The position numbers are program-made. From Escherichia coli (GTDB lineage Bacteria; Pseudomonadota; Gammaproteobacteria; Enterobacterales; Enterobacteriaceae), in the NCBI RefSeq assembly GCF_003334385.1, contig NZ_QOWN01000007.1: 64,000 nucleotides of DNA; one strand, written 5' to 3'. Below are positions 54,001-57,000 of this stretch, one piece after another. Every line of letters begins with the position of its first letter. Within the stretch, counting starts at the first letter, position 1.

Positions 54001-57000
54001 CAGATGCGACATTTTCCAGCATATCGCCTGGTAAGGCACAACAGGCAGCGACAACCGCCGATAATGCACAGCCAGTTCCTACCACTTTGGTCATTAACGG
54101 ATCGCCACCGTGAATACCAATGATACGATGTCCATCGGTAACATAATCCACCTCGCCAGTGACCACGACGATTGCGCCAGTTTCCCGTGCCAGTGTTTGT
54201 GCAGCGGGTATCGCGTTAGCTGCGGCGTCAGTGGTATCCACTCCCCGTCCGCCATTAGCAATGCCAGCTAATGCCATGATTTCCGAAGCATTACCACGTA
54301 TCGCTGCCGGTTTAAAAGATAAAAGTTCATGACAAAAATGGCGGCGATAATCGAGCGCACCCACCGCTACTGGATCAAGCGTCCAGGGTGTTTGAGAGCT
54401 TTTTGCTTGCTCAACGGCAGCACGCATCGCCTGTGCGCGTGGCTGCGTCAGTGTGCCAACGTTAATCAACAAGGCACTGGCGATAGCCGCAAACTGACTG
54501 GCCTCTTCGGTTTCGATAACCATCGCTGGCGATGCACCGAGCGCCAGCAAGGTATTGGCGGTAAAGGTTTGCACCACATCATTGGTCATGCAGTGCACAA
54601 GAGGGGAATGTTGGTGAAAAAGGTGTAACGCGTGCGCAGATTGCGCTGAACCCAGCAGGTCGACTTGCATAGTTTGCTCCTGCCATAACGTGAAGAAGCA
54701 ATGACCTGGTGGTCCGTGACTTCCCTACGCTGGCATTATCCAGATCAGGTGATACGGGTATTTCTCAGCCTTCACGCAGAAGGGCACCCCGAGTCGTTTG
54801 GTTGCGATGATAAATCGCAGAGGAGGATGGTAATGTCCAGCGCACGCGTTGTAAACGAGGAAAAACGGCAGTTTTACAATCGCGTTAATAAATTATTTGA
54901 TATATGAATCCAGCACCTTCAGAACGACATCCAGATCTTCTTCACGTTTTAGCTCATCCCCCTGGTGAACGATGTGTTCCGTCAGATGACCTTTAATCAC
55001 TTCCCGCATCAGACCGTTTACCGCGCCACGGATAGCAGCAATCTGTTGTAAAACTGCAGCGCATTCGTGCGGCTCGTCGAGCATTTTCTTGAGCGCCACG
55101 ACCTGGCCCTGAATCTTACTGGCACGCGCTTTCAGTTTCTGTTTATCACGGATTGTATGAGACATGGCAACACCTGGTTAACAAGAATATGAAAAATCAT
55201 AGCACTATTAATCTACTGGGGGGTAGTATCAGGTACTGGGGGGGAGTAGAATCAGATTGCCGAATTAATACTAAGAATTATTATCATGACCGAATTTACA
55301 ACTCTTCTTCAGCAAGGAAACGCCTGGTTCTTCATCCCCAGCGCCATCTTACTTGGTGCGCTTCATGGCCTGGAACCAGGGCACTCAAAAACGATGATGG
55401 CGGCGTTTATCATCGCCATCAAAGGCACCATTAAACAGGCGGTGATGCTCGGACTGGCAGCAACCATTTCGCATACCGCGGTGGTCTGGTTGATTGCCTT
55501 TGGCGGGATGGTGATCAGTAAGCGCTTTACTGCTCAATCAGCAGAACCGTGGCTCCAGCTGATTTCCGCAGTGATCATTATTAGCACCGCGTTCTGGATG
55601 TTCTGGCGTACCTGGCGCGGCGAACGCAACTGGCTGGAGAATATGCACGGGCATGATTATGAGCATCATCATCACGATCACGAAGATCACCACGACCATG
55701 GACATCATCACCATCACGAACATGGCGAGTATCAGGATGCCCATGCACGAGCCCATGCCAATGATATTAAACGACGCTTTGATGGTAGAGAGGTCACCAA
55801 CTGGCAAATTTTGTTATTTGGCTTAACAGGTGGTCTTATCCCCTGTCCGGCAGCAATTACCGTGCTGTTGATTTGCATTCAGTTGAAAGCCCTGACACTG
55901 GGCGCAACACTGGTCGTCAGTTTCAGCATTGGCCTGGCGTTAACGCTGGTCACCGTAGGCGTTGGCGCAGCAATCAGCGTTCAGCAGGTCGCAAAACGCT
56001 GGAGCGGATTTAACACTCTCGCTAAACGCGCCCCCTATTTTTCCAGTCTGTTGATTGGCTTAGTTGGTGTGTATATGGGCGTACATGGCTTCATGGGCAT
56101 AATGCGATAACTCAATCCTTTAGGCTTGCATGTTATCTTCAGCCCAGGATGATTCTTAAATCAGCTATTTCCGCTGACTCTCTGCTCGCTAAGGATGCTT
56201 TTAGGGCATCCTTTCATTTACACTTTTTACGAAATCATGGGATCACTAACAAAATATCGCTTGTCAGTTATATTGTATGGCAGGAAAGATATGCGACTGA
56301 TATTACAGATCCCCAAAGTGGAGAGTTTATGACCATTAAAAATAAGATGTTGCTGGGTGTGCTTTTGCTGGTTACCAGTGCCGCCTGGGCCGCACCAGCC
56401 ACCGCGGGTTCGACCAATACCTCGGGAATTTCTAAGTATGAGTTAAGTAGTTTCATTGCTGACTTTAAGCATTTCAAACCAGGTGATACCGTCCCAGAGA
56501 TGTACCGCACCGATGAGTACAACATTAAGCAGTGGCAGTTACGTAACCTGCCCGCGCCTGATGCCGGGACGCACTGGACCTATATGGGTGGCGCGTACGT
56601 GTTGATCAGCGACACCGACGGTAAAATCATTAAAGCCTACGACGGTGAGATTTTTTATCATCGCTAAAAAAATCCCCCTCATCATGAGGGGGAAATGCAG
56701 ACACCTTGTTATTTTTTATTATTAGCCACTTGCTCGTCTTGCTTGTTATTAGTCGTATTTCACGTTGATTAATGCGGTTGCCTCCAGTGCGCCAGATTTA
56801 ACTTTGTTTGTATCGTAGACGTAGTAACTGGCTGTTATCGGAATTGAAACCGTTGTATCTGTAAGTTTTGACTTTGCCGCAATTTCTTTTAAATTTGTGT
56901 ATCCTTTGCTGTTATCAGTGATATTTAAAAGTGTGACTGGCGAACCATTACTTTCAAGAATAAATCCTACGCCATTATCTTCCGCACCTTTCAGTATTGT

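What the first reader, a model, noticed from the sequence alone, without database searches (positions are those of the whole stretch)
55658..55770. RcnA histidine-rich loop as a likely length-variable tract
The loop HGHDYEHHHHDHEDHHDHGHHHHHEHGE is encoded by repetitive CAT/CAC/GAT codons (around 55660-55750), a configuration prone to slippage. Loop length may differ between strains and could tune Ni/Co efflux.
Basis: inference. Interest (0 to 1): 0.2.

Follow-up and report, generated by a model that had tools for sequence, protein, structure and literature searches.

The report
rcnA histidine loop: a known VNTR
The histidine-rich loop of the nickel/cobalt exporter RcnA does vary in length between E. 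coli strains, but this is old news: the site is already a standard repeat-typing marker, and the copy in this window is the common, stable version.

Summary
The loop is real.

The prediction that loop length differs between strains holds. Of 5,366 complete E. coli genomes carrying rcnA, roughly 14-18% have a different gene length. Lengths run from 789 to 876 bp, giving loops of 15-44 aa with 8-24 His. Every length change among the annotated intact alleles I read is in frame and confined to the loop; one further allele carries a 1-nt frameshift there.

There are three loop architectures:
- **Class A:** the window/K-12 type, built of imperfect repeats.
- **Class B:** (CACGAG)n, encoding HE repeats, n = 3-7.
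- **Class C:** (GACCAC)n, encoding DH repeats, n = 4-10, within the O157:H7 lineage.

The window allele is class A. Tandem Repeats Finder reports no array in it, its DNA is no more repetitive than its protein sequence requires, and about 82% of genomes share its length.

None of this is new. Published MLVA primers show the site is locus CVN007 of generic E. coli typing (this window is allele 3) and VNTR-19/TR7/O157-19 of PulseNet O157 typing. It corresponds to Salmonella STTR5 (in yohM) and to a Klebsiella rcnA VNTR.

The idea that length tunes Ni/Co efflux has been suggested in print but is untested. Verdict: ordinary, already known.

The parts
55286..56110 (+). rcnA (yohM) coding sequence, 274 aa, Ni/Co efflux protein
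   Evidence: ORF. NCBIfam NF007454 at 558 bits, full length. 100% identical to RefSeq-annotated rcnA in several genomes.
55646..55729 (+). His-rich loop HGHDYEHHHHDHEDHHDHGHHHHHEHGE (aa 121-148, 16 His). This is the only part of the gene where length differs between strains.
   Evidence: Coordinates and codons. Allele alignments place every indel here. No TRF array in this allele.
55546..55566 (+). Binding site of the forward primer for generic E. coli MLVA locus CVN007
   Evidence: Primer sequence from PMC8143711 Table 1. Exact single match in the window.
55894..55914 (-). Binding site of the reverse primer for CVN007. The amplicon is 369 bp, and (369-314)/18 = 3.06, so allele 3.
   Evidence: Exact single match. 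Sizing formula from PMC8143711. In-silico amplicons.
55568..55603 (+). Site homologous to the forward primer of PulseNet O157 MLVA VNTR-19 (TR7/O157-19)
   Evidence: Primer from PMC3321953 Table A1. 1 mismatch here and 0 mismatches in O157:H7 alleles.
55821..55849 (-). Site homologous to the reverse primer of VNTR-19
   Evidence: 4 mismatches here and 1 in O157:H7 alleles.
54893..55165 (-). rcnR, the divergently transcribed Ni/Co-responsive repressor (90 aa)
   Evidence: ORF. Annotated as rcnR at the same position in all relatives fetched.
55214..55248 (+). Two RcnR operator sites, TACT-G6-N-AGTA (55214-55228 and 55234-55248), in the rcnR-rcnA intergenic region
   Evidence: Two exact matches against 0 expected by chance. 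Motif as described in PMC7055735.
56329..56667 (+). rcnB, periplasmic accessory protein of the efflux system (112 aa)
   Evidence: Sequence. The 219-nt offset after rcnA and the 339-nt length match the annotated rcnB in relatives.

Best explanation
**What it is.** The feature is the central His/Asp/Glu-rich loop of the inner-membrane Ni(II)/Co(II) exporter RcnA. It sits in an intact rcnR-rcnA-rcnB locus with both RcnR operators.

**How it is built.** The loop DNA is a degenerate repeat of about 18 bp (units resembling HHxDHE). In some lineages, perfect 6-bp arrays have expanded inside it.

**How it changes length.** The perfect arrays, (GACCAC)n encoding DH and (CACGAG)n encoding HE, gain and lose whole units. 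The likely mechanism is replication slippage. Each unit is two codons, so the frame is always kept and only the number of metal-ligand residues changes.

**Why it is not new.** This makes the site a true VNTR, and it is already used as one: CVN007 in generic E. coli MLVA, VNTR-19/TR7/O157-19 in O157 MLVA, and STTR5 at the corresponding site of Salmonella yohM.

**Where this window fits.** Its allele is the interrupted, mixed-codon class (CVN007 allele 3). It has no perfect array and is effectively length-stable.

**Shown versus inferred.** Shown here: the anatomy, the population variation and the identity with the typing loci. Inferred from the stepwise 6-bp allele series within one clone and from established VNTR biology: slippage as the mechanism. 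Taken from the literature and not tested: the loop binds Ni/Co, and its length matters for efflux.
For: **Identity of the gene and locus.**
- NF007454 at 558 bits.
- RefSeq annotation of identical genes as rcnA.
- rcnR and rcnB flank the gene.
- Both RcnR operators are present.

**Length variation is confined to the loop.**
- I read 20 alleles, the window's plus 19 fetched. Of the 18 intact ones, the 17 that span the range have genes of 789-876 bp, loops of 15-44 aa and 8-24 His. L019 adds an 831-bp gene with a 29-aa loop.
- One further allele has the window's loop but an IS1 element at its 3' end, and one is frameshifted within the loop.
- The flanking 120 + 127-128 aa differ from the window at 0-2 residues on each side, at most 3 in total.

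**Stepwise change within one clone.**
- An O157-type-specific query hits 325 genomes.
- The sampled spans correspond to (GACCAC)n with n = 4, 5, 6, 7, 8, 9 and 10, on an otherwise identical gene.
- HE-type alleles L012, L004 and L005 share one flanking haplotype with n = 3, 4 and 5.

**Variability tracks repeat purity.**
- Perfect period-6 tracts are 20-62 nt in the variable classes and 13 nt in the window/K-12 class.
- For the 165-bp loop query, 4,417 of 5,366 genomes fall in the identity bands of 95% or more. All 51 sampled rows in those bands have the same length.

**Identity with known VNTR loci.**
- CVN007 primers match the window exactly and flank the loop.
- VNTR-19 primers, described as lying inside ORF Z3274 with 3-11 repeats and 9 alleles, flank it in O157 alleles with 0 and 1 mismatches.
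- Salmonella STTR5 lies in yohM.
- A Klebsiella VNTR with unit CATGGT lies within rcnA.
Against: - Slippage was not observed directly. Some differences between allele classes look like old haplotypes or recombination. The O157-type allele has 26 nt differences in its 3' part, and L011 carries an O157-like loop on a window-like 3' flank.
- Population proportions come from systematic 60-row samples and BLAST identity bands, not from a full census.
- The genome collection over-represents clinical and O157 isolates.
- Stability of the window-type allele could reflect selection rather than low mutability.
Confidence: 0.9

Rival explanations
1. Adaptive tuning (contingency locus). Repeat-number changes in the loop quantitatively alter Ni/Co binding, buffering or export, and selection in different niches maintains the polymorphism.
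For: - The number of potential ligand residues changes threefold, from 8 to 24 His.
- In 12,112 S. Typhimurium isolates, STTR5 alleles cluster in a mid-range, which the authors read as functional constraint on YohM.
- Authors have suggested that metals select on copy number.
- Cable bacteria carry a greatly expanded RcnA loop, 100-123 aa with 33-53 His.
Against: - No phenotype data exist in anything I could read.
- Keeping the reading frame is automatic for 6-bp units, so it is not evidence of selection.
- The locus works as a near-neutral epidemiological marker that varies within outbreak-scale clones.
- About 82% of E. coli keep a single length across phylogroups and habitats.
Confidence: 0.15
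2. The allele in this window is itself a hypermutable tract.
For: - It has short perfect repeats: (CAT)3.7, (ATCACG)2.2 and (CATCAC)2.
- Rare class A variants exist: a 36-bp deletion between copies of ATCACGAACAT (L007), and insertions of +15 and +24 bp (L008, L010) and +6 bp (L019).
Against: - There is no TRF array at score 30 or above.
- Repetitiveness is no greater than a synonymous-codon null.
- All 51 sampled rows in the identity bands of 95% or more have identical length, spanning K-12, ST131, O121 and O103 backgrounds.
- In this window the GAT at codon 134 shortens the 11-bp direct repeat seen in K-12 to 8 bp.
Confidence: 0.05
3. Length differences mainly reflect recombination between a few old allelic classes, not ongoing slippage.
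For: - Three distinct loop architectures come with distinct flanking haplotypes (4 + 26, about 10 + 9, and 5 + 7 nt differences from the window).
- L011 is a mosaic allele.
Against: - It cannot explain the seven-step 6-bp series within the O157:H7 clone on an identical gene background.
- It cannot explain n = 3, 4 and 5 on one HE-type haplotype.
- It cannot explain the reported change of the homologous Salmonella repeat during a single in-vivo passage.
Confidence: 0.1

Closest known systems
CVN007, a locus of the generic E. coli MLVA scheme (Lindstedt et al. 2007, as used in PMC8143711, PMC3407997 and PMC3877011)
   Same: It is this exact site. Both primers match the window perfectly at 55546-55566 and 55894-55914 and bracket the loop. 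The window gives a 369-bp amplicon, allele 3, which is the commonest value in published profiles.
   Different: - The scheme scores an 18-bp unit. Much of the real variation is in 6-bp steps, so in-silico alleles come out fractional, for example 4.22, 4.56 and 4.89.
- The MLVA papers I read do not name the gene or discuss the protein.
VNTR-19 (= TR7 = O157-19) of the PulseNet E. coli O157:H7 MLVA
   Same: - Same gene and loop. The published primers flank it in O157:H7 alleles with 0 and 1 mismatches.
- The published description is a 6-bp unit inside ORF Z3274 with 3-11 repeats, which matches the (GACCAC)4-10 I find.
   Different: The window does not carry the O157-type allele. It has no (GACCAC) array and lacks the GDNE tail, and the primer sites have 1 and 4 mismatches.
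STTR5 of Salmonella Typhimurium MLVA (in yohM = rcnA)
   Same: - An in-frame 6-bp VNTR encoding His-Asp repeats, located between the two halves of YohM.
- It can change quickly: an 18-aa HD deletion was reported after in-vivo passage.
   Different: It is in a different genus, with longer arrays (dominant alleles have 8-14 units). I did not read Salmonella sequences directly.
Klebsiella pneumoniae MLVA locus 27 (unit CATGGT within rcnA)
   Same: A 6-bp in-frame VNTR inside rcnA, with 0-19 copies.
   Different: The unit differs (His-Gly rather than His-Asp or His-Glu). This rests on the literature only.
Expanded RcnA loop of cable bacteria
   Same: The same loop in the same protein family, varying greatly in length and His count.
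   Different: That is a fixed difference between distant taxa (100-123 aa), not within-species repeat polymorphism.

Membership tests
RcnA nickel/cobalt efflux protein (NCBIfam NF007454 / PRK10019) | Full-length match to the family model above its curated cutoff | tested here: met
   558.3 bits against a cutoff of 195; residues 1-274 align to profile positions 1-283.
RcnA nickel/cobalt efflux protein (NCBIfam NF007454 / PRK10019) | rcnR-rcnA-rcnB gene order with two TACT-G6-N-AGTA RcnR operators in the rcnR-rcnA intergenic region | tested here: met
   ORFs. Annotations of syntenic relatives. Two exact operator matches with 0 expected. Motif from PMC7055735.
RcnA nickel/cobalt efflux protein (NCBIfam NF007454 / PRK10019) | Confers Ni/Co resistance by efflux | not testable with these tools
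   Known for the K-12 protein from Rodrigue et al. 2005, cited; that paper is not in the library. The window protein differs from the K-12 protein only at loop residue 134 (D versus H).
VNTR typing locus (CVN007 / VNTR-19) | Published primer pairs bind on either side of the feature | tested here: met
   CVN007 primers match exactly in the window. VNTR-19 primers match O157 alleles with 0 and 1 mismatches.
VNTR typing locus (CVN007 / VNTR-19) | Copy number or length differs among strains of the species | tested here: met
   At least 14 gene lengths between 789 and 876 bp. About 14-18% of 5,366 genomes differ from 825 bp.
VNTR typing locus (CVN007 / VNTR-19) | A detectable head-to-tail tandem array in this particular allele | tested here: not met
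   TRF reports nothing at score 30 or above in the window's rcnA, whereas O157-type and HE-type alleles score 57-95. The window allele is a degenerate, interrupted member of the locus.
Contingency (phase- or function-variable) locus | Repeat changes switch or modulate gene function at high frequency | not tested
   All unit changes are in frame, so there is no on/off switching. One frameshifted allele was seen (L017, a 1-nt deletion, annotated as a pseudogene) and could be a sequencing error. No functional data exist.

The most novel reading that the evidence does not exclude
The number of His-Asp or His-Glu units in the RcnA loop sets the Ni/Co threshold or capacity of the exporter. The VNTR would then act as a heritable, rapidly adjustable 'rheostat' for metal homeostasis. 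That would mean routine MLVA data (VNTR-19, CVN007, STTR5) already record an adaptive trait. My evidence does not exclude this; it simply has not been tested.
Probability: 0.12. Interest if true: 0.45.

Novelty: already known. Interest (0 to 1): 0.12.

Why it matters
It matters little as a discovery. The polymorphism has been used for strain typing for about two decades, and others have already voiced the metal-tuning idea.

The useful outcome is a clarification. Typing literature rarely names the gene behind CVN007 and VNTR-19, and one O157 paper describes the ORFs as hypothetical or of unknown function. Metal-homeostasis literature rarely notes that the RcnA loop is a VNTR.

The natural allele series is a ready-made set for a simple experiment on what the loop does. 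It runs from 15 to 44 aa and 8 to 24 His on an almost invariant transporter body.

Tried and rejected
- **TRF and repeat finding on the window allele:** no array, only degenerate 66-72% copies.
- **Test for excess DNA repetitiveness or codon-level 'stabilisation':** the allele does not differ from synonymous-codon nulls in either direction.
- **My first recollection that the locus might be CVN014 was wrong.** The primer table shows it is CVN007.
- **Paper search for 'yohM' plus 'O157':** only irrelevant hits.
- **Rodrigue et al. 2005 (PMC1070376):** not held in the library.
- **Search for functional tests of loop length (STTR5 with nickel and cobalt; RcnA with histidine-rich):** only speculation found.
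- **Large protein-database, metagenome and genome-contig scans, and structure prediction:** not run. The E. coli genome collection and the literature already answered the question, and the cost was not justified.
- **Apparent odd-length hits:** H5 is an IS1 insertion at the 3' end of rcnA with an unchanged loop. H111 is a 1-nt frameshift within the loop in a single genome.

Full report
**1. What is at the coordinates**

The ORF at 55286..56110 (+) encodes 274 aa. It matches NCBIfam NF007454 'nickel/cobalt efflux transporter' end to end, at 558 bits against a cutoff of 195. It is 100% identical to genes annotated rcnA in several complete E. coli genomes.

The surrounding locus is intact:
- rcnR lies upstream and divergent, at 54893..55165 (-).
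- rcnB lies downstream, at 56329..56667 (+).
- Two RcnR operators of the form TACT-G6-N-AGTA sit at 55214-55228 and 55234-55248, with 0 expected by chance. The motif is as described in PMC7055735.

**2. Is this allele a slippage-prone repeat?**

Only weakly.
- TRF reports nothing at score 30 or above.
- The longest perfect tracts are CATCATCATCA (11 nt) and ATCACGATCACGA (13 nt).
- Otherwise there is a degenerate unit of about 18 nt at 66-72% identity.
- Compared with 20,000 synonymous re-codings of the same peptide, the observed DNA is neither more nor less repetitive than the amino-acid sequence forces it to be.

**3. Does loop length vary between strains?**

Yes. rcnA is present in 5,366 of 5,426 complete E. 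coli genomes. Three systematic samples of 60 rows each, ranked with different queries, gave 8/59, 9/59 and 8/59 rows whose length differs from the window's.

With a 165-bp loop query, 4,417 genomes fall in identity bands of 95% or more. All 51 sampled rows in those bands have the same length. The remaining roughly 18% are gapped or fail to match.

I fetched 19 alleles, so 20 were read including the window's.
- Among the 17 intact alleles that span the range, genes run from 789 to 876 bp, loops from 15 to 44 aa, and His counts from 8 to 24.
- Every indel in them is a multiple of 3 and lies in the loop.
- The 120 residues before the loop and the 127-128 after it differ from the window at 0-2 positions on each side, at most 3 in total.
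- L019 adds an 831-bp gene with a 29-aa loop.
- Two further alleles are not simple length variants: L018 has the window's loop with an IS1 element at its 3' end, and L017 is frameshifted within the loop.

**4. Anatomy of the variation**

| Class | Loop structure | Repeat content | Variants seen |
|---|---|---|---|
| A (window, K-12, ST131, many others) | HGHDYE HHHHDHE [D/H]HHDHG HHHHHEHG, 27 aa | Mixed codons, no perfect array | See below |
| B | (CACGAG)n then CATGATCATGAG... | HE repeats, n = 3, 4, 5, 7 | L012, L004 and L005 share one flanking haplotype and differ only in n |
| C (O157:H7 type) | ...CAA (GACCAC)n GAA..., with an extra GDNE tail | DH repeats, n = 4-10 | See below |

Rare class A variants include a 36-bp deletion between two copies of ATCACGAACAT (L007, and apparently LF82). 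Others are insertions of +15, +24 and +6 bp (L008, L010, L019) and a 3-bp deletion (L014).

For class C, a query specific to this allele type hits 325 genomes. A spread sample of those hits gives this distribution:

| n | 4 | 5 | 6 | 7 | 8 | 9 | 10 |
|---|---|---|---|---|---|---|---|
| Rows | 6 | 4 | 25 | 12 | 4 | 1 | 1 |

I confirmed n = 4, 5, 6, 7, 8 and 10 by reading sequence on an otherwise identical gene.

Perfect period-6 tracts are 20-62 nt in classes B and C, against 13 nt in class A. Variability therefore tracks repeat purity and length. This is the expected behaviour of replication slippage. That last step is an inference from the allele series and from general VNTR biology; I did not observe it directly.

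Differences between the classes also involve old haplotypes and some recombination. The O157-type allele has 26 differences in its 3' part, and L011 combines an O157-like loop with a window-like 3' flank.

**5. Comparison with what is known**

The site is an established VNTR.
- **CVN007.** The primers of the generic E. coli MLVA (listed in PMC8143711) match the window exactly at 55546-55566 and 55894-55914. The 369-bp amplicon gives (369-314)/18 = 3.06, allele 3. This is the value seen in most published profiles, while ST648 profiles show 2, consistent with class B.
- **VNTR-19.** The primers of the PulseNet O157 MLVA locus (= TR7 = O157-19) come from PMC3321953. That paper describes a 6-bp unit inside ORF Z3274, with 3-11 repeats, 9 alleles and a diversity index of 0.76 in 202 isolates. 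The primers flank the loop in all six O157-type alleles with 0 and 1 mismatches.
- **Salmonella.** STTR5 lies 'between two domains of YohM'. The same repeat is reported as VNTR-19 of strain UK-1. An 18-aa HD deletion was reported after in-vivo passage.
- **Klebsiella.** A CATGGT VNTR with 0-19 copies lies within rcnA.
- **Cable bacteria.** They have a greatly expanded RcnA loop.

**6. Function**

The loop is generally taken to bind Ni/Co, and is predicted to be cytoplasmic. One paper notes that it is still unclear whether RcnA acts as an exporter or as a chelator through this loop.

The idea that repeat number responds to, or affects, metal resistance has been voiced several times. I found no test of it. 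Preservation of the reading frame is automatic for 6-bp units, so it says nothing about selection.

**7. Verdict**

- The loop is real.
- The prediction of inter-strain length variation is correct at the species level.
- The specific allele in this window is the common, interrupted, length-stable form.
- The phenomenon is already known and in routine use for typing.
- The only open element is whether length has a phenotype.

Interest is low.

Noticed in passing
window 57799-60294 (- strand); stop codon at 59104-59106: The fimbrial usher gene next to yehA (presumably yehB, from my own knowledge of the K-12 gene order) is split into two in-frame ORFs of 396 and 412 aa. A single premature stop (...AFTLGTG*NTRIG...) interrupts them, so it is probably a pseudogene in this strain.
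   Followed up: partly
L017 (NZ_CP158147.1, strain FDN-24), rcnA at 156-1006: One genome has a 1-nt deletion inside the His-loop DNA (CATCATCACCAC becomes CATCACACCAC). It is annotated as a frameshifted pseudogene. It could be a real inactivation or a sequencing error.
   Followed up: partly
L018 (NZ_CM174518.1, strain KH_005) 1118-1418: An IS1 element is inserted at the extreme 3' end of rcnA, replacing the last codons and lengthening the CDS to 837 bp. The loop is identical to the window's.
   Followed up: partly
E. coli genome searches; hit H60, NZ_CP047455.1: 60 of 5,426 complete genomes have no rcnA match. In strain ZF31 only the first 111 nt remain, next to yehA, which suggests a deletion of the rest of rcnA and of rcnB. 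Each search also reports exactly one rcnA place on a plasmid record. The O157-type-specific query reports one too.
   Followed up: no
L011 (NZ_CP090456.1, strain B379), rcnA at 41-892: A mosaic allele: an O157-like loop, (GACCAC)4 plus the GDNE tail, joined to a 3' part only 2 nt different from the window's (O157 alleles differ by 26 nt). This suggests recombination with a breakpoint at or near the loop.
   Followed up: no
window 55682-55687 (codons 133-134): The window's loop differs from K-12's by one residue, D134 (GAT) against H (CAT). The change shortens the 11-bp direct repeat ATCACGAACAT, which flanks the 36-bp deletion seen in L007, to 8 bp. About 376 genomes have a loop within one mismatch of the window's, and the five sampled rows in that band are identical to it.
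   Followed up: partly
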